From Escherichia coli (GTDB taxonomy: Bacteria > Pseudomonadota > Gammaproteobacteria > Enterobacterales > Enterobacteriaceae), in assembly GCF_003991155.1 (NCBI RefSeq), contig NZ_CP031295.1: a DNA stretch of 64,000 nucleotides; one strand, written 5' to 3'. The stretch's first letter is position 1. Every line of letters starts with the position of its first letter. The notes below the pieces were generated by a model. The model made no database searches, had not been told where the DNA came from, and saw only the letters and a program-made list of their open reading frames with translations. Positions 4,019 to 63,955 of this stretch are shown here, piece by piece. A program made the translations under genes and the position numbers.

Positions 4019-4369
4019 TCCGTGCTCATTTCCTCAAAAAAATACAAGAAAAGAATTAGTATTCTAACAAAAAGTGAAATAAATTGTATCAAACTCCCTC
4101 TTTTAATCCTGTTGAGTAAATCAGCTTTTGCAATAGGATTGAAAGAGTGTAAGTGGAATCTCTTCCGGATACTCGTTACCACCGTGGCTAGAATATCTAC
4201 GGCTGCGGGCCAGTAATAGATTAAGTGATAACAGCTGTCTGGAAATGTAGGGGCGTATCCACTAATCATAATCATTGTGAGATAAATATTACGGGGCATT
4301 TTATAATGAATAAAGGTGATGCTGCCAACTTACTGATTTAGTGTATGATGGTGTTTTTGAGGTGCTCCA

Positions 4370-4645
4370 GTGGCTTCTGTTTCTATCAGCTGTCCCTCCT
4401 GTTCAGCTACTGACGGGGTGGTGCGTAACGGCAAAAGCACCGCCGGACATCAGCGCTATCTCTGCTCTCACTGCCGTAAAACATGGCAACTGCAGTTCAC
4501 TTACACCGCTTCTCAACCCGGTACGCACCAGAAAATCATTGATATGGCCATGAATGGCGTTGGATGCCGGGCAACTGCACGCATTATGGGCGTTAGCCTC
4601 AACACGATTTTACGTCACTTAAAAAACTCAGGCCGCAGTCGGTAA
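4370..4645 (+). CDS. insA: IS1 InsA
   Basis: 91 aa [17 protein letters not shown]... with zinc-finger-like CxxC pairs; starts at nt 56 of the element as in IS1. Confidence 0.9.
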
Positions 4646-4689
4646 CCTCGCGCATACAGCCGGGCAGTGACGTCATCGTCTGCGCGGAA

Positions 4690-5067
4690 ATGGACGAACA
4701 GTGGGGATACGTCGGGGCTAAATCGCGCCAGCGCTGGCTGTTTTACGCGTATGACAGGCTCCGGAAGACGGTTGTTGCGCACGTATTCGGTGAACGCACT
4801 ATGGCGACGCTGGGGCGTCTTATGAGCCTGCTGTCACCCTTTGACGTGGTGATATGGATGACGGATGGCTGGCCGCTGTATGAATCCCGCCTGAAGGGAA
4901 AGCTGCACGTAATCAGCAAGCGATATACGCAGCGAATTGAGCGGCATAACCTGAATCTGAGGCAGCACCTGGCACGGCTGGGACGGAAGTCGCTGTCGTT
5001 CTCAAAATCGGTGGAGCTGCATGACAAAGTCATCGGGCATTATCTGAACATAAAACACTATCAATAA
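4690..5067 (+). CDS. insB: IS1 InsB (made as InsAB' transposase by -1 frameshift from insA)
   Basis: 125 aa ORF in the -1 frame relative to insA, ending just inside the right IR. Confidence 0.85.
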
Positions 5068-5264
5068 GTTGGAGTCATTACCGCCTTGACCATCAGATAG
5101 TTATTTTGGTGCTAGGGATACTGAGTGTGAACAGTTAGCGCGCGTCCTCGCCAGTTAGCTCGCTACGCTCGGTTACACGACGGCTACGAGTACTAGTGAT
5201 AATTATTGACTGAGGTATGTGCTCTTCCTGTTTCCTTTTTTGATGTGTTGCTCTCATTTTAAAC

Positions 5265-57024: not shown

Positions 57025-57248
57025 CTACCTCTCACTAGTGAGGGGCGGCAGCGCATCAAGCGGTGAGCGCACTCCGGCACCGCCAACTTTCAGCACATGC
57101 GTGTAAATCATCGTCGTAGAGACGTCGGAATGGCCGAGCAGATCCTGCACGGTTCGAATGTCGTAACCGCTGCGGAGCAAGGCCGTCGCGAACGAGTGGC
57201 GGAGGGTGTGCGGTGTGGCGGGCTTCGTGATGCCTGCTTGTTCTACGG
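57025..57248 (-). pseudogene. intI1: intI1 (class 1 integron integrase) 3' fragment, truncated by IS26
   Basis: minus-strand translation ...[68 protein letters not shown] is a tyrosine-recombinase C-terminus with the catalytic Tyr; the upstream part is replaced by IS26 at 57249. Confidence 0.8.
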
Positions 57249-58068
57249 GGCACTGTTGCAAATAGTCGGTGGTGATAAACTTATCATCCCCTTTTGCTGA
57301 TGGAGCTGCACATGAACCCATTCAAAGGCCGGCATTTTCAGCGTGACATCATTCTGTGGGCCGTACGCTGGTACTGCAAATACGGCATCAGTTACCGTGA
57401 GCTGCAGGAGATGCTGGCTGAACGCGGAGTGAATGTCGATCACTCCACGATTTACCGCTGGGTTCAGCGTTATGCGCCTGAAATGGAAAAACGGCTGCGC
57501 TGGTACTGGCGTAACCCTTCCGATCTTTGCCCGTGGCACATGGATGAAACCTACGTGAAGGTCAATGGCCGCTGGGCGTATCTGTACCGGGCCGTCGACA
57601 GCCGGGGCCGCACTGTCGATTTTTATCTCTCCTCCCGTCGTAACAGCAAAGCTGCATACCGGTTTCTGGGTAAAATCCTCAACAACGTGAAGAAGTGGCA
57701 GATCCCGCGATTCATCAACACGGATAAAGCGCCCGCCTATGGTCGCGCGCTTGCTCTGCTCAAACGCGAAGGCCGGTGCCCGTCTGACGTTGAACACCGA
57801 CAGATTAAGTACCGGAACAACGTGATTGAATGCGATCATGGCAAACTGAAACGGATAATCGGCGCCACGCTGGGATTTAAATCCATGAAGACGGCTTACG
57901 CCACCATCAAAGGTATTGAGGTGATGCGTGCACTACGCAAAGGCCAGGCCTCAGCATTTTATTATGGTGATCCCCTGGGCGAAATGCGCCTGGTAAGCAG
58001 AGTTTTTGAAATGTAAGGCCTTTGAATAAGACAAAAGGCTGCCTCATCGCTAACTTTGCAACAGTGCC
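57249..58068 (+). mobile_element. IS26 (820 bp)
   Basis: 14-bp terminal IRs GGCACTGTTGCAAA at 57249-57262 and TTTGCAACAGTGCC at 58055-58068. Confidence 0.9.
57312..58016 (+). CDS. tnpA: IS26 transposase
   Basis: 234 aa from [21 protein letters not shown]... Confidence 0.9.
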
Positions 58069-58090
58069 TTTTCATACAACGGAGGGGGTT

Positions 58091-58477
58091 ATGAATAAAC
58101 CAGCAGATCTGAAACCCCGCAACTTATCGGCTGCTGTCAGATTGCGCCTAAATGAAATCGAGAACTGGCTGGACAGAGGGCTAACGCGGCATGAAATTGC
58201 TGAAATCCTCGACAGCGAATACAGCTTTTCGGTAACAGCCAAAGGGCTTGAGATGGCACTGTATAGAACGCGGCAAAACCGAAAAAATGTATTGCACAAT
58301 ACGCATGATAAGAGTAGCGCGAAGGGTGCAGCGGAAAGTGTATTGCACAATACACAACCGTCTGAGCCTGAAGTGCAGGAAAGTAAAAAAGCAGAGAGTC
58401 CCGGCATTATTGATAAAGAATTCTTCAAGAAAATCGGTGAGAATTTCGACCCTAAGAAGTTCAACAAAAAATTCTGA
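58091..58477 (+). CDS. hypothetical protein (128 aa) with possible N-terminal helix-turn-helix
   Basis: first ATG outside IS26 (MNKPADLKPRNL...); segment RGLTRHEIAEIL resembles an HTH; contains two copies of the near-palindrome TGTATTGCACAATAC (about 58279 and 58332); family not recognised. Confidence 0.4.
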   Translation: MNKPADLKPRNLSAAVRLRLNEIENWLDRGLTRHEIAEILDSEYSFSVTAKGLEMALYRTRQNRKNVLHNTHDKSSAKGAAESVLHNTQPSEPEVQESKKAESPGIIDKEFFKKIGENFDPKKFNKKF

Positions 58478-58560
58478 GGTGATTTATGAAAGTAGCGGTA
58501 ATTAATTACAGTGGCAGTGTTCGTAAAACCTTAATTTCATCTTACCTGTTAGCCCCGCGC

Positions 58561-59617
58561 GGCTTTGTTGAATAAATCAGATTTCGGGTAAGTCTCCCCC
58601 GTAGCGGGTTGTGTTTTCAGGCAATACGCACGCTTTCAGGCATACCTGCTTTCGTCATTTTGTTCAGCGCTCGTACCAGGGCCATAGCCTCTGCAACCTG
58701 ACCATCGTAGTCACGCAGTATCAGTGAACCTCCGAACAGCTGTTTTACCCGGTACATCGCCGTTTCCGCTATCGAGCGACGGTTGTAATCTGTTGTCCAT
58801 TTCCACCGCGCATTACTCCCGGTCAGCCGCTGATTCGCAACAGCACGGTTACGGTCTGCATATTCACCGGGCCAGTAACCCGCGCCTTTTCGGGGCGGGA
58901 TAAGCGCGCTGATTTTCTTACGCCGCAGTTCATCGTGACAGAGTTGGGTGTCGTAAGCGCCGTCTGCCGATGCTGCCCTGATTTTTCTGTGAGTCTGCCG
59001 GATAAGACCCGGGAAGGCTTCTGAGTCCGTCACATTGTTCAGCGACAGGTTTGCACAGATGATTTCATGTGTGTTGCTGTCAACTGCCAGATGCAACTTT
59101 CGCCATATACGACGGCGTTCCTGGCCATGCTTTTTGACTTTCCATTCGCCTTCACCAAAGACCTTCAGCCCGGTGGAATCAATCACCAGATGCGCGATTT
59201 CACCCCGGGTGAACGTTTTGAAACTGACATTAACCGACTTTGCGCGCCTGCTGACACTGGTGTAATCCGGGCAGCGCAACGGAACATTCATCAGTGTAAA
59301 AATGGAATCAATAAAACCCTGTGCAGCCCGCAGGGTCAACCTGAACACGCGTTTAATGACCAGAACGGTGGTGATGGCGAGATCAGAATAGCGCTGAGGT
59401 CTTCCCCGTGATGAAGGCGTTGCCGACTCATACCAGGCCTGAATAGCTTCATCATCCAGCCAGAAAGTTATGGAGCCACGGTTGATGAGGGCTTTATTGT
59501 AGGTGGGCCAGTTGGTTATTTTGAACTTTTGCTTTGCCACGGAACGGTCTGCGTTGTCGGGAAGATGCGTGATCTGATCCTTCAACTCAGCAAAAGTTCG
59601 ATTTATTCAACAAAGCC
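58561..59617 (-). mobile_element. IS903-like insertion sequence (IS5 family, 1057 bp)
   Basis: 18-bp terminal IRs GGCTTTGTTGAATAAATC at 58561-58578 and inverted at 59600-59617; flanking 9 bp differ. Confidence 0.8.
58617..59585 (-). CDS. IS903-like transposase (DDE)
   Basis: 322 aa ORF filling the element; recognised as the IS903/IS102 transposase family from memory; true start may be an internal Met. Confidence 0.8.
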   Translation of the reverse strand: MKDQITHLPDNADRSVAKQKFKITNWPTYNKALINRGSITFWLDDEAIQAWYESATPSSRGRPQRYSDLAITTVLVIKRVFRLTLRAAQGFIDSIFTLMNVPLRCPDYTSVSRRAKSVNVSFKTFTRGEIAHLVIDSTGLKVFGEGEWKVKKHGQERRRIWRKLHLAVDSNTHEIICANLSLNNVTDSEAFPGLIRQTHRKIRAASADGAYDTQLCHDELRRKKISALIPPRKGAGYWPGEYADRNRAVANQRLTGSNARWKWTTDYNRRSIAETAMYRVKQLFGGSLILRDYDGQVAEAMALVRALNKMTKAGMPESVRIA

Positions 59618-59989
59618 GTCTGTGTTGTAAAATGGCGCCGAAAGCCCGGCGTAGCCGGTTGCCGGGCTATAAATTCTGCCACCCTACCCCCTGCCCTGAT
59701 TAGCCTTAACTCGCGAACAGCAATGAAGAAGTCAAAGTAATCCCTTTTAACCCCGGTGAGCGGGCTTTACGGCGTTTACGACGTAAAGGGCGTGATTTCC
59801 GGGGCCTAAGCGGCGGCAGCTTGCTGCTGACGCTTAGGGGGATGTTCATCAACTATTTCAGCGACACCAGGGAACTTAACACGGTAGCTGCAAAGCCCTA
59901 ATCCCGCTCACCGCCACGCAGCTGCCGTACGTCCCCCACGGGGGTGCGCAGTGCTGCGCGCGGGAACGGCGGCCCGTCTGCGGGACGCG

Positions 59990-60735
59990 GCGCCGTACTG
60001 CGCGTTAGCGGCCGCACGCGGCCGGTTAACCGTATTGCACGCAAGCTAAATGTGCTGGGCATAAAAACCGCGCTCGATCTGGCTCTGACGAACCCGGCCT
60101 TCATCCGCAAAAATTTTTCTGTCGTCCTTGAGCGAACGGTACGGGAACTGAACGGGGAAAGCTGCCTTTCGCTTGAGGAAGCCCCTCCGACGAAACAGCA
60201 AATTGTCTGCAGCCGCAGTTTTGGCGTGAAGATCACGGAGTACGAGTCACTCCGTCAGGCTATCTGTCAGCACGCAGAGCGGGCCTCTGAAAAACTGCGT
60301 AAAGAGCACCAGTATTGCCGGCATATTTCCGTTTTCATCAAAACGTCTCCGTTCGCCATTAAAGAGCCTTACTACGGCAACGTGGCTACGGAAAAACTTC
60401 TTACACCCACTCAGGACACCAGGGACATCATTGCAGCCGCTACAACGGCTCTGGAGCGTATCTGGAGGGATGGGCACCGGTATGCCAAAGCCGGAGTTAT
60501 GCTGAATGACTTCACCGGCTCCGGAGTTTCGCAGCTGCAACTGTTCGACGAACGCCCGCCACGCCCTCACAGTGCTGAGCTGATGAGGGTTCTGGACGGG
60601 ATCAACAACTCAGGGCTGGGTAAAGTATGGTTTGCGGGGCGGGGTATGGCCCCGGAATGGCAGATGAAACGGGAGATGCTTTCTCCTGCTTATACGACAC
60701 GATGGTCAGATATTCCTGCAGCGAAACTGGCGTGA
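59990..60735 (+). pseudogene. umuC: umuC-like (Y-family DNA polymerase V catalytic subunit), C-terminal fragment
   Basis: translation ...NRIARKLNVLGIKTALDLALTNPAFIRKNFSVVLERTVRELNGESCLSLEE...LSPAYTTRWSDIPAAKLA aligns with the C-terminal half of UmuC/MucB; no N-terminal half and no umuD upstream. Confidence 0.7.
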
Positions 60736-60739
60736 AACT

Positions 60740-60816
60740 ATGGCGATTTCACCGTGAAATTCTCAACCTAAACTGCCTAATTACAATAAGTTAGATGTGA
60801 AATCGCCATGGCGAAA
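60740..60816. repeat. parS: putative P1-type parS centromere
   Basis: immediately downstream of parB; heptamer ATTTCAC/GTGAAAT and hexamer TCGCCA/TGGCGA boxes around an AT-rich core. Confidence 0.5.
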
Positions 60817-61791
60817 TTATTGACTCAAATTTCTGTCAAGGACTTCGTTGATAGCCTTGTCCAGTTCATCCTGAATCACTTTTGACATACGGCTAAACTC
60901 ATAAGTCAGCGTGCGCCCTTTCACACGCTTACGCGCGAACTTGTCCTTTTCTTCAAAAGACCAGAGTGGGGAAACCACTGACTTTTCCTTGGGAGATGGA
61001 TCTATCAATGCCTGAGATGCCTGAGAAATCAGCTTCAGAATACTGGCTTTCTGTTCGTCTTCTGGTCGCTCGCCATCACTCAAAATTGCATCGAGCTGAG
61101 CTGATACAGACTGAATGAGTTCTTCAGGCGTTAATCCCTTTTCACCGAGTTTTTCATTAACTTCTAAAAGAAGTTTATAATCACTAAACGATAGCTCCGA
61201 CTGAACCGGGAACAGAGAAATTAAGTCTTGCGGTACGGCCGCCGCCTGCAGCGCCCTGGTAACTTTAGCCTGAGATAATCCCTCCAGTTCAGCAATTTCC
61301 TTTTGATTAAATCCGGACTCTTTAAGAGCGATCAATCTCAGACCAATCTCCCGAAGATTATGTTCTTTAGCTGTCTGGATATCTTTAGCCAGTTGGCGAG
61401 CTTCATCAGCTGATAAATGTTCTTCGGTAACCATTACATCAAGGCCTGTACGGACAAAAATTGCTGAGGCTCGCCGTCTTGAACCATCCAGTATCTCAAT
61501 CCTTTCACTTTGCTTAATACCAATACAGGGAAAGAACTGCTGAAACTTAATCGTCTGGATAATGGATTTCAGAGACTCCCTGGTCAGTGCAAGTTGATCT
61601 CTTCCATTGTTTTCCTGGTTTACGAAGGTCTTACTTTCAACTTCAGATGCAGGCACCCGAACAAACCTGAACGTTACCTTCCTGCCGGTTTTTAAGGTAA
61701 ATACCTGACTTCTACCGGTGTCAGCCATTTCGAGCATTGACGCCTGAGTATTTAACTGTCTGCCGATGGTTTTTCTTTTCTCATTCGACAT
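60817..61791 (-). CDS. parB: ParB partition protein (P1/P7 type)
   Basis: starts MSNEKRKTIGRQLN...; HTH region ...GLSQAKVTRALQAA...; start overlaps the parA stop. Confidence 0.85.
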   Translation of the reverse strand: MSNEKRKTIGRQLNTQASMLEMADTGRSQVFTLKTGRKVTFRFVRVPASEVESKTFVNQENNGRDQLALTRESLKSIIQTIKFQQFFPCIGIKQSERIEILDGSRRRASAIFVRTGLDVMVTEEHLSADEARQLAKDIQTAKEHNLREIGLRLIALKESGFNQKEIAELEGLSQAKVTRALQAAAVPQDLISLFPVQSELSFSDYKLLLEVNEKLGEKGLTPEELIQSVSAQLDAILSDGERPEDEQKASILKLISQASQALIDPSPKEKSVVSPLWSFEEKDKFARKRVKGRTLTYEFSRMSKVIQDELDKAINEVLDRNLSQ

Positions 61792-62996
61792 CACATACCT
61801 CCGTTAGTACGAATGAACTCGATGCGATCAAAGACTGCCTTCGCAAAGTCTTCCGCTGCTGATTTTGCGCTTTTTAGTGCCTCTGTACTTCCATCATAGG
61901 TTGCTGGATTTGCTGAAATAACTGTGTCAAAAGTCTCCCCACAACGTTCGAAACCATCCAGTCTTGGCAGAACCATGTCTAGCATATCGGCACCGAAAAC
62001 CTCTTTGGCCTGACTATGGCAAATTTTGTGATCAGACTTGTTCAGGATCTTGGACATGAAGCCGACATTACCGATGAGATTGCAGGTGTGCCCATCCATT
62101 TCGATGGAATCTATGAGGGCAGGGAGGCTGGCCACAAACTTCAGGGAAGAATGAAAATCAACCGTCGCCGGTGGAAGAGGGGTCAACATCAGGTCTGCCG
62201 CCCCAATGCAGTTTTTCAGGAACGCATCAAGGTGAGGACCACTATCAAGGAAAATAAAGTCGTAGTCATGCTGGAGCTTGTCGATAATGTTCTCTTTAAG
62301 CACCGCATGAATATTTTTCCCTGGCAGATGTTCTTCACACAATCCCTTCCAGCCTTCAGCAAGGAATGCATCGTCAATGGAAGCGGGGATTACATCAACA
62401 CCAGGGATAATAGACGGTACTATAAAATCGGAAAGTAATTCTTCACGAGACACGTTCTGGAGCATGGCCTGAGCAGCCGTATTTTCAACCAAGCCCACTG
62501 AATTCTCATGGCTCAGGAACATTGTCAGAGATGCCTGCGGATCGAAATCGATGGCCAGAATACGCAGGTCTTCGAACAGAAGCTGAGGATGAGCTCGAAA
62601 AGCATGTGATAATGAAGCGGTAGAAACTGTCTTGGAACCACCACCTTTAAGATTACATACAAAAATCGTAAAGGCTTTATCGAAGCGATCCCTGTACTTC
62701 GGTACTTTACGATGGTTATACAGATCGATGACATTCTGAATCGTCATCGCGTATTTCATCGTATTACCAGAAGGTTTCTTTTTAAAAATGTAGCCACCGG
62801 CTTCCATTTCGGACACAGCATACTCAACACTGCCTTTACTGAGCTTAGGCAGCTTATACAGAGCGGCTTTGCTGTATTCCTGATAGAACTCGGTAAGCTT
62901 CAATTCCTCTTTTTGCTGTCGGATACTTTCGCTCAAAGATGTCAGAAGCTTACCTGCACGTGTAGCGACTTTCCGTAACTGCTCAATATTGTCCAT
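61791..62996 (-). CDS. parA: ParA partition ATPase (P1/P7 type, type Ia with N-terminal regulatory domain)
   Basis: 401 aa; deviant Walker A CNLKGGGSKTVST; ~100-aa N-terminal extension typical of autoregulating type Ia ParA. Confidence 0.9.
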   Translation of the reverse strand: MDNIEQLRKVATRAGKLLTSLSESIRQQKEELKLTEFYQEYSKAALYKLPKLSKGSVEYAVSEMEAGGYIFKKKPSGNTMKYAMTIQNVIDLYNHRKVPKYRDRFDKAFTIFVCNLKGGGSKTVSTASLSHAFRAHPQLLFEDLRILAIDFDPQASLTMFLSHENSVGLVENTAAQAMLQNVSREELLSDFIVPSIIPGVDVIPASIDDAFLAEGWKGLCEEHLPGKNIHAVLKENIIDKLQHDYDFIFLDSGPHLDAFLKNCIGAADLMLTPLPPATVDFHSSLKFVASLPALIDSIEMDGHTCNLIGNVGFMSKILNKSDHKICHSQAKEVFGADMLDMVLPRLDGFERCGETFDTVISANPATYDGSTEALKSAKSAAEDFAKAVFDRIEFIRTNGGM

Positions 62997-63060
62997 TTAT
63001 CACCTCATGACGTTTTTTGTCATTTTGAACAAAAAGTGTCATGTTGCAAGAAAAAAATCA
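62997..63060 (-). promoter_or_regulatory. putative parA promoter/operator
   Basis: AT-rich region with inverted repeats (tgacgttttttgtca, gtgtcatg) directly upstream of parA. Confidence 0.4.
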
Positions 63061-63391
63061 TATTGTTTTGATTTCGCTCTCAACAGAAGGGGGATGAAGC
63101 TCGACGGGCGTGCTACTAAATCACACTGCAGCAACACGCAGACGCACTTTTGACCATCAACAGCAACTCATACAAAAGGGCTTTGAGAAAGGTATTCAAC
63201 TTGCAAGACAGGAGAGTCATTCAGAAGGATTCTGATTTTAGTTACGACCAGTGCAATGCTGAGCCTTATGTATCAGCGCTCGCCGCAGCCATGTAACCGA
63301 GCGTAGCGAGCGAACTGGCGAGGAAGCGAAGAGGAACCGTTCCGGCAGATAGCTCTTACGCTCAGCACAAGAAGAGTTTTCCATCCTCTGT

Positions 63392-63955
63392 GGGAAACAG
63401 GTCAACTTTAATGGACGCTCCGGACTATGGGAAACAGGTCAACTTCGCGGACGGCCCGGACTATGGGAAACAGGTCAACTTCACGGGCGGCCGGGAGTGT
63501 GGGGAACAGGTCAACTTCGCGGACGGCCCGGACTATGGGAAACAGGTCAACTTCGCGGGCGGCCGGGACTGTGGGAAACAGGTCAACTTTGCAGACGGCC
63601 CGGACTGTGGGAAACAGGTCAACTTCGCGGGCGGCCGGGAGTGTGGGGAACAGGTCAACTTCGCGGACGGCCCGGACTAAGGGAAACAGGTCAGCTTCTC
63701 GGACGGCCCGGACTATGGGAAACAGGTCAACTTCTCGGACGGTCGGGAGTGTGGGAAACAGGTCAACTCCGCGTACGGCCCGGACTGTGGGAAACAGGTC
63801 AACTTTGCAGACGGCCGGGACTGTGGGAAACAGGTCAACTTTGCAGACGACCGGGACTGTGGGAAACAGGTCAACTACGCAGACAGCCGCGATTGCGGGA
63901 AACAGGTCAAGTTAGGCAAGCACTATGGGAAACACAGCAAGTTCAGTATCCCCCC
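63392..63955. repeat. tandem array of about 15 iteron-like direct repeats (period 35-37 bp)
   Basis: core GGGAAACAGGTCAACTT every 35-37 bp with a variable GC-rich spacer; the six-frame ORFs across it are 12-residue peptide repeats, i.e. translation artefacts. Confidence 0.85.

What the first reader, a model, noticed from the sequence alone, without database searches (positions are those of the whole stretch)
59618..60735. umuC-like gene reduced to its C-terminal half next to IS903
The translation from about 59990 matches only the C-terminal half of UmuC/MucB-type polymerases (from the ...RIARKLNVLGIKTALDLA... region to the C-terminus). The ~370 bp between the IS903 end and this point are GC-rich and do not translate cleanly, and no umuD-like gene precedes it. 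A plasmid mutagenic-repair operon was therefore destroyed, presumably in connection with the IS903 insertion.
Basis: partly seen in the sequence, partly recalled or inferred. Interest (0 to 1): 0.3.

Follow-up and report, generated by a model that had tools for sequence, protein, structure and literature searches.

The report
Truncated plasmid umuC pseudogene, deletion remnant
This is the dead C-terminal 55% of an IncR-plasmid error-prone-polymerase gene (umuC), left by an ordinary 4.5-5 kb deletion that began 410 bp away from the neighbouring IS903, and public annotation already marks it as a pseudogene.

Summary
Window 60028-60735 encodes residues 189-423 of the IncR-backbone UmuC, with 235 of 235 residues identical to an intact copy. 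The catalytic N-terminal domain and umuD are absent from the whole 64-kb window.

The link to IS903 is not supported. IS903 occupies 58561-59617. The 410 bp after it (59618-60027) is non-coding flank of an orphan IncN-type replication origin. Other IncR plasmids have the same IS903|410-bp boundary, followed by IncN 37-bp iterons, a truncated repA, IS1, retA, umuD and an intact umuC. The window differs from them by one 4.5-5.0 kb deletion. Its junction is the TA at 60027-60028 (GGTTA against GGGTA), with no insertion-sequence end there. IS903 was therefore present before the deletion, and the deletion did not start from its end.

The same junction occurs in 18 of 72,556 PLSDB plasmids and 15 of 5,426 complete E. 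coli genomes. In the RefSeq records I read, it is annotated as a 708-bp umuC pseudogene "missing N-terminus". Loss of retA and umuD with truncation of umuC has been published for another IncR plasmid. I found no promoter-like site and no good ribosome-binding site for the chimeric ORF.

Verdict: real, ordinary and already known. Low interest.

The parts
57249..58068 (.). IS26 (820 bp). It marks the left boundary of the IncN/IncR-derived block. An intI1 3' fragment lies to its left.
   Evidence: IS26 terminal repeats at 57249 and 58055-58068. Transposase ORF 57294-58016. Homology to IncR plasmids starts at 58069.
58091..58477 (+). IncN-type stbA (intact)
   Evidence: NCBIfam StbA_2 equivalog, E 7.8e-61. 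The equivalent gene is annotated stbA in relatives.
58487..58560 (+). First 74 bp of the next gene (inferred to be stbB), cut by IS903
   Evidence: An ATG ORF, MKVAVINYSGS..., runs into the IS903 end. The name is inferred from IncN gene order as I recall it.
58561..59617 (-). IS903 (1057 bp), with no 9-bp target duplication
   Evidence: Inverted repeats at both ends. Transposase ORF 58617-59585 on the minus strand. Annotated IS903B/IS5 family in relatives. The flanks differ: gccccgcgc on the left, gtctgtgtt on the right.
59618..60027 (.). Non-coding flank of an orphan IncN-type iteron origin. It is itself mosaic: 59618-59908 is IncFII(K)-like and 59888-60028 is an IncN-like GC-rich flank.
   Evidence: 100% identical to IncR plasmids in which it is followed by 22.5 x 37-bp iterons and a truncated Rep_3 repA. 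88% identical to the iteron flank in plasmids typed IncN. 95% identical to a stretch downstream of repA in IncFII(K) plasmids.
60027..60028 (.). Deletion junction: the TA shared by both parental sequences (GGTTA against GGGTA)
   Evidence: Three-way alignment of the window, the IncN-flank parent and the umuC parent.
60028..60735 (+). umuC pseudogene: codons 189-423 plus the stop codon. It keeps part of the thumb, the little finger (IMS_C) and DUF4113.
   Evidence: RefSeq annotation: 708-bp pseudogene, 'missing N-terminus'.
60740..60809 (.). 13-bp perfect inverted repeat with ATTTCAC heptamers, between the convergent umuC and parB genes. Candidate partition site (parS).
   Evidence: Sequence. 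Three heptamers fall in this 82-bp spacer. The reading as parS rests on my memory of the phage P1 parS box A.
60817..62996 (-). IncR parB (60817-61794) and parA (61791-62996)
   Evidence: Pfam ParB, E 2.1e-50. Annotation of identical genes in relatives.
63388..63910 (.). IncR iterons, 36 bp x 14.5 copies
   Evidence: Tandem Repeats Finder. 36-bp IncR repB iterons are described in PMC9412624.

Best explanation
Window 60028-60735 is a non-functional remnant (codons 189-423) of the umuC gene of the IncR plasmid backbone.

The ancestral arrangement is still present in many IncR plasmids: IncN stbA, stbB' cut by IS903, a 410-bp IncN-origin flank, IncN 37-bp iterons, a truncated IncN repA, IS1, retA, umuD, umuC, parB, parA and the IncR replicon. 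A single deletion of about 4.5-5.0 kb removed the iterons, the repA fragment, IS1, retA, umuD and the first 563-565 nt of umuC. It joined the origin flank to umuC codon 189 at a shared TA, which indicates illegitimate, non-homologous recombination.

Shown directly: the structure, the endpoints, and the absence of any IS end at the junction.

Inferred: that the deletion was a single step, and the recombination mechanism.

The remnant lacks the palm and fingers catalytic domain, the umuD partner gene and its native promoter, so it cannot make polymerase V. It probably persists because it is neutral, and because deletions reaching further right would hit the partition locus that begins 5 bp after the umuC stop codon (candidate parS, then parB).
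For: - The window's left arm, 58069-60028, is 99.8% identical to NZ_CP072498.1. Its right arm, 60027-63766, is 98.9% identical to the same record. The two arms lie 5,013 bp apart there. The gap is 4.46-4.50 kb in pCfr-36808cz and NZ_CP124811.1.
- In those records the gap holds the iterons, a Rep_3 fragment, IS1, ltrA/retA, umuD and an intact Y-family polymerase gene.
- The junction sequence is fully explained by the two parental sequences, with no extra bases.
- The remnant is 235/235 identical to residues 189-423 of an intact IncR UmuC. The IMS domain is absent.
- umuD and the umuC 5' half are absent from the window. They are also absent from a complete 35-kb plasmid with the identical junction.
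- The junction occurs in 18 PLSDB records, always with the adjacent IS903, and in 15 of 5,426 E. coli genomes. This fits one inherited event.
- The RefSeq records I read annotate it as a pseudogene.
- There is no promoter-like site in 59500-60030.
- The published IncR backbone is repB, parAB, umuCD, retA, vagCD, resD, and p24150-tet lacks retA and umuD and has a truncated umuC (PMC11783820).
Against: - No sampled undeleted plasmid matches both arms at 99.9% or better. Their umuC alleles are 98.2-98.9% identical to the window's, so the direct parent was not recovered.
- A 2-bp overlap is too short to identify a mechanism.
- A multi-step history cannot be excluded from the sequence alone.
- Expression of the chimeric ORF 59944-60735 was not tested experimentally.
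Confidence: 0.9

Rival explanations
1. One reading: IS903 insertion, or an IS903-mediated adjacent deletion, truncated umuC and removed umuD.
For: IS903 is the nearest mobile element. It has no target-site duplication, so it has taken part in some rearrangement. All 18 PLSDB plasmids with the junction also carry it.
Against: The breakpoint is 410 bp from the IS end. The identical IS903|410-bp boundary coexists with intact umuDC in other IncR plasmids. The missing target duplication is explained on the other side of IS903, where it abuts stbB. No IS903 sequence lies at 60027/60028.
Confidence: 0.04
2. The 263-codon chimeric ORF (GTG at 59944 to 60735) is expressed. The resulting little-finger plus C-terminal UmuC fragment would act as a binding decoy for UmuD', RecA or the beta clamp and modulate host SOS mutagenesis.
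For: The frame is open from 59944. The IMS_C and DUF4113 domains are intact and 100% conserved. The fragment alone still scores above the NCBIfam UmuC cut-off, 445.9 against 431 bits.
Against: No promoter-like site lies upstream. The GTG has no properly spaced Shine-Dalgarno sequence. The same upstream frame is open by chance through the GC-rich iterons in relatives. The 100% identity shows only that the deletion is recent, not that selection has acted. RefSeq calls it a pseudogene.
Confidence: 0.03
3. The deletion was a two-step or IS1-mediated event. For example, an IS1 adjacent deletion into umuC was followed by loss of IS1 and the iterons.
For: IS1 lies inside the deleted segment in all undeleted relatives. 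The iteron copy number varies between plasmids, at 22.5 and 32.5 copies in the two arrays measured, so the region is unstable.
Against: No IS1 remnant lies at the junction. No intermediate structure appeared among the PLSDB hits: coverage classes fall straight from full junction matches to matches on the umuC side only. A one-step deletion is more parsimonious.
Confidence: 0.05

Closest known systems
IncR plasmid backbone umuDC (for example CP026720.1, pHN84KPC-type; backbone repB-parAB-umuCD-retA-vagCD-resD)
   Same: The remnant is 100% identical in protein to residues 189-423 of the IncR UmuC. It has the same neighbours: convergent parB-parA and the 36-bp repB iterons (PMC11783820 and PMC9412624).
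   Different: The first 188 codons, umuD and retA are missing. An IncN-origin flank replaces them upstream.
IncR plasmids carrying the IncN remnant stbA-IS903-iterons-truncated repA-IS1 (NZ_CP072498.1, pCfr-36808cz NZ_MG557997.1, NZ_CP124811.1)
   Same: Identical IS903 position and identical 410-bp flank, with the same order of modules.
   Different: They keep the 4.5-5.0 kb that is deleted here, including intact umuD-umuC.
p24150-tet, a Raoultella IncR plasmid reported to lack retA and umuD and to have a truncated umuC (PMC11783820)
   Same: The same kind of backbone erosion in the same plasmid group.
   Different: I did not compare its sequence, so I do not know whether its breakpoint is the same.
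E. coli UmuC, MucB and ImpB (Y-family polymerase V catalytic subunits)
   Same: The fragment matches the family model over positions 189-422 and has the IMS_C and DUF4113 domains.
   Different: There is no catalytic IMS domain, no UmuD/MucA/ImpA partner gene and no native promoter.

Membership tests
UmuC / polymerase V catalytic subunit (functional member) | N-terminal IMS catalytic domain (palm and fingers, PF00817) | tested here: not met
   Pfam finds only IMS_C and DUF4113 in the window ORF. Intact IncR UmuC has IMS at residues 6-148. The remnant starts at residue 189.
UmuC / polymerase V catalytic subunit (functional member) | Little-finger domain (IMS_C) and UmuC C-terminal domain (DUF4113) | tested here: met
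   IMS_C E 9.7e-27 and DUF4113 E 5.8e-20. The NCBIfam UmuC subfamily model scores 445.9 bits against a cut-off of 431, over model positions 189-422.
UmuC / polymerase V catalytic subunit (functional member) | Adjacent upstream umuD (S24 peptidase) partner gene | tested here: not met
   No UmuD hit in the window by tblastn at E<=1, nor in the complete plasmid pECO-a7e8 with the same junction. The intact operon has a Peptidase_S24 gene immediately upstream of umuC.
UmuC / polymerase V catalytic subunit (functional member) | Native SOS-regulated promoter upstream of the operon | tested here: not met
   The native upstream DNA is replaced by the IncN flank. No sigma-70-like site lies in 59500-60030. 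I did not search for a LexA box separately.
IS903 (IS5-family) adjacent deletion | The deletion endpoint abuts the IS terminal inverted repeat | tested here: not met
   The IS903 end is at 59617 and the umuC breakpoint is at 60027/60028. The 410 bp between them is shared with undeleted plasmids.
IncR plasmid backbone | parAB plus 36-bp repB iterons next to umuC | tested here: met
   parB and parA match IncR-typed records at up to 99.9% identity. The iterons are 36 bp x 14.5 copies. repB itself lies beyond the window end.
IncN replicon remnant (identity of the 410-bp spacer) | Continuity with 37-bp iterons and a Rep_3 repA in relatives, and similarity to plasmids typed IncN | tested here: met
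   Iterons of 22.5 x 37 bp and a Rep3_C/RepE-like fragment follow the 410 bp in L002. That repA fragment is 98.6% identical to repA of the IncN plasmid pEcNDM1. 59888-60028 is 88% identical to the iteron flank in IncN plasmids. Only the right-hand ~140 bp is IncN-like; the left ~290 bp is IncFII(K)-like.

The most novel reading that the evidence does not exclude
Two readings are not excluded.

(a) The deletion may have been selected rather than neutral. It removes an orphan array of 22 or more IncN iterons, which could titrate the RepA of a co-resident IncN plasmid or hinder replication. On this reading umuDC was collateral loss.

(b) The surviving chimeric ORF may yield a UmuC little-finger and C-terminal fragment that interferes with host polymerase V.

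Neither is indicated by more than circumstance.
Probability: 0.08. Interest if true: 0.3.

Novelty: already known. Interest (0 to 1): 0.07.

Why it matters
It matters little. It is a useful lineage marker: one specific junction is shared by 18 PLSDB plasmids and 15 complete E. coli genomes, from pigs, humans and wastewater. It shows that this IncR-derived module has lost its plasmid-borne SOS mutagenesis function. It also corrects a tempting attribution, because the nearest insertion sequence did not cause the truncation. No open question becomes testable because of it.

Tried and rejected
- **Group II intron or other structured RNA in 59618-60027.** I considered this because retA lies upstream of umuDC in IncR plasmids. 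An Rfam E-value scan of 58000-61000 found nothing, so I rejected it.
- **Translocation or inversion instead of deletion.** The umuD and umuC 5' sequences are absent from the window and from a complete plasmid with the same junction. Rejected.
- **Hidden promoter for the chimeric ORF.** No promoter-like site was found upstream.
- **Second IS903 copy in the window as a recombination partner.** Each terminal repeat occurs only once.
- **Literature support for reading 59618-59908 as an IncFII G-site (single-strand initiation signal).** The search returned no papers. The idea rests on position, a modest single-strand fold z-score and my memory.
- **Exact parent plasmid.** I did not find one. The sampled undeleted relatives have umuC alleles 98.2-98.9% identical to the window's.

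Full report
**Anatomy**

IS903 occupies window 58561-59617. It is 1057 bp, has terminal repeats at both ends, and carries its transposase on the minus strand. To its left lie an intact IncN-type stbA (58091-58477; NCBIfam StbA equivalog, E 7.8e-61) and the first 74 bp of the next gene, which run into the IS. Further left is IS26 (57249-58068).

To the right of IS903 come 410 bp with no coding signal (59618-60027). An ORF follows whose UmuC-like part begins at 60028 and ends at the stop codon at 60733-60735. Convergent parB (60817-61794) and parA (61791-62996) follow, then a 36-bp x 14.5 iteron array (63388-63910). These are the IncR partition and replication modules.

**Checking the observation**

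- The UmuC match is far beyond chance. The NCBIfam UmuC model gives E 1.4e-133 over model positions 189-422 of 422.
- tblastn with an intact IncR UmuC (CP026720.1) gives 235/235 identities for residues 189-423.
- Pfam finds IMS_C and DUF4113 but not the catalytic IMS domain. The intact protein carries that domain at residues 6-148.
- Against solved Y-family polymerases, UmuC 5-206 aligns with Dpo4 6-205. By the Dpo4 domain boundaries as I remember them, residue 189 falls in the thumb. Palm, fingers and the catalytic carboxylates are therefore gone.
- Neither umuD nor the 5' half of umuC occurs anywhere in the 64-kb window.

Homology starts at 60028 rather than about 59990, and the spacer is 410 bp rather than about 370 bp. 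G+C of the spacer is 61.5% overall and 75% in its last 140 bp.

**What the 410 bp is**

The 410 bp is not degraded umuC. A megablast search finds it, or part of it, in 3,159 PLSDB plasmids, and 756 of them cover at least 80% of it.

In IncR plasmids such as NZ_CP072498.1, pCfr-36808cz and NZ_CP124811.1, the same IS903 end abuts the same 410 bp at 100% identity. There the sequence continues into the following:

- 22.5 copies of a 37-bp repeat;
- the 3' end of a Rep_3/RepE-like initiator gene cut by IS1;
- then ltrA/retA, umuD and an intact umuC, followed by parB and parA.

The initiator fragment is 98.6% identical to repA of the IncN-typed plasmid pEcNDM1. In two IncN-typed plasmids, pEC656_KPC and pEcNDM1, an 88% homologue of 59888-60028 lies between the resolvase gene and the rest of the replicon region. 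In pEC656_KPC a run of 37-bp iterons follows directly.

The left 290 bp (59618-59908) is instead 95% identical to a stretch about 760 bp downstream of repA in IncFII(K) Klebsiella plasmids. The spacer is therefore itself an older mosaic of replicon-flanking DNA. That explains why it is GC-rich and does not translate. Rfam finds nothing in it.

**The breakpoint**

I aligned the window with both parental contexts. The IncN-flank parent matches through 60028 (...GCGGCCGGTTA|CGGGGG). The umuC parent matches from 60027 (...GGGTGGGTA ACC GTA...). Both share the TA at 60027-60028, and four of the five bases GGTTA/GGGTA. There are no extra bases and no IS end at the junction.

Relative to undeleted relatives, the missing interval is 5,013 bp in NZ_CP072498.1 and about 4.46-4.50 kb in pCfr-36808cz and NZ_CP124811.1. 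Part of that difference is a shorter stretch between the flank and IS1, where the iterons lie.

Because an intact gene cannot be rebuilt from the remnant, the direction of change is from undeleted to deleted. A complete 35-kb plasmid with the identical junction (pECO-a7e8) has no umuD and no umuC 5' half anywhere. This is therefore a deletion, not a translocation.

**Role of IS903**

The identical IS903|410-bp boundary coexists with intact umuDC in the relatives, and the breakpoint is 410 bp away from the IS end. IS903 therefore did not truncate umuC.

IS903 does lack a 9-bp target duplication (gccccgcgc on one side, gtctgtgtt on the other). That reflects an older rearrangement joining IncN stbB to the replicon flank. 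It is shared by the undeleted plasmids, so it is unrelated to the umuC loss.

**Mechanism and function**

The most likely mechanism is a single illegitimate-recombination deletion. A 2-bp overlap fits this but does not prove it.

The remnant has no catalytic domain, no UmuD partner gene, no native promoter, no promoter-like site upstream and no well-spaced Shine-Dalgarno sequence before the GTG at 59944. The N-terminal 28 codons of the 263-codon ORF are an accidental open frame in GC-rich DNA. The same frame stays open through the iterons in relatives. I therefore regard it as an inert pseudogene.

The remnant may be retained because the DNA immediately to its right is essential for partition. 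The 82-bp spacer before parB carries a 13-bp perfect inverted repeat and three ATTTCAC heptamers. From memory, these resemble box A of the phage P1 parS site. This last point is an inference.

**Prevalence and prior knowledge**

The junction is present in exactly 18 of 72,556 PLSDB records, always with the adjacent IS903. It is also present in 15 of 5,426 complete E. coli genomes, and the listed hits are all plasmid records from pigs, humans, wastewater and sediment. This fits a single inherited event.

In the RefSeq records I read, the 708 bp is already annotated as a umuC pseudogene, "incomplete... missing N-terminus". The literature lists umuCD and retA as IncR backbone genes. It also reports an IncR plasmid lacking retA and umuD with a truncated umuC (PMC11783820; PMC9412624).

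**Context of the window**

Upstream of IS26 the window matches IncFII conjugative plasmids at 100% identity, with traI, Tn3/TEM-1 and IncFII repA. No PLSDB record covers more than 76% of the window's last 25 kb in one place. The window is therefore an IS26-joined IncFII::IncR(+IncN remnant) cointegrate of a common kind.

**Verdict**

The feature is ordinary and already annotated, and it is of low interest beyond its use as a lineage marker.

Noticed in passing
window 60740-60809: A 13-bp perfect inverted repeat, ATGGCGATTTCAC...GTGAAATCGCCAT, and three ATTTCAC heptamers lie in the 82-bp spacer between the convergent umuC and parB stop codons. This looks like a phage P1-type parS centromere for the IncR ParAB system. 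The resemblance is from memory and was not tested.
   Followed up: partly
window 59618-59908: This ~290-bp stretch is 95% identical to a region about 760 bp downstream of repA in IncFII(K) Klebsiella plasmids, and it is unannotated in every PLSDB record I opened. Its + strand folds as single-stranded DNA better than shuffled controls (z -2.63, against -0.70 for the other strand). Its position fits the IncFII G-site, a primase single-strand initiation signal, but that is only a recalled lead.
   Followed up: partly
window 58552-58560 and 59618-59626: IS903 has no 9-bp target duplication (gccccgcgc against gtctgtgtt). It sits at a recombinant joint between IncN stbB and replicon-flank DNA. In pECO-a7e8 the left neighbour of the same IS903 is different, a fragment of an SOS-response-associated peptidase gene, so the element is a recurrent recombination point.
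   Followed up: partly
window 57025-58068: IS26 (57249-58068) cuts a class 1 integron integrase gene: the 3' end of intI1 lies on the minus strand up to 57248. IS26 forms the joint between the IncFII/Tn3 part of the window and the IncN/IncR block. No PLSDB record reproduces this joint.
   Followed up: partly
L002 4491-5322; L006 5439-6640; L004 4234-4442 and 7168-8153: Orphan IncN 37-bp iteron arrays vary widely in copy number between plasmids (5.6, 22.5, 26.6 and 32.5 copies). They persist next to a truncated repA in many IncR plasmids, and also occur in an IncFIA/FIB E. coli plasmid.
   Followed up: no
window 63388-63910: The IncR iteron array has 14.5 copies of a 36-bp unit. The count reported for pST1023 in PMC9412624 is 10.4. 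The array creates long spurious repeat-peptide ORFs on both strands.
   Followed up: no
window 4319-5082: An IS1 copy, 91% identical to the IS1X3-type copy that lies inside the deleted segment of the undeleted IncR relatives. It is the only part of that segment with any match in the window.
   Followed up: no
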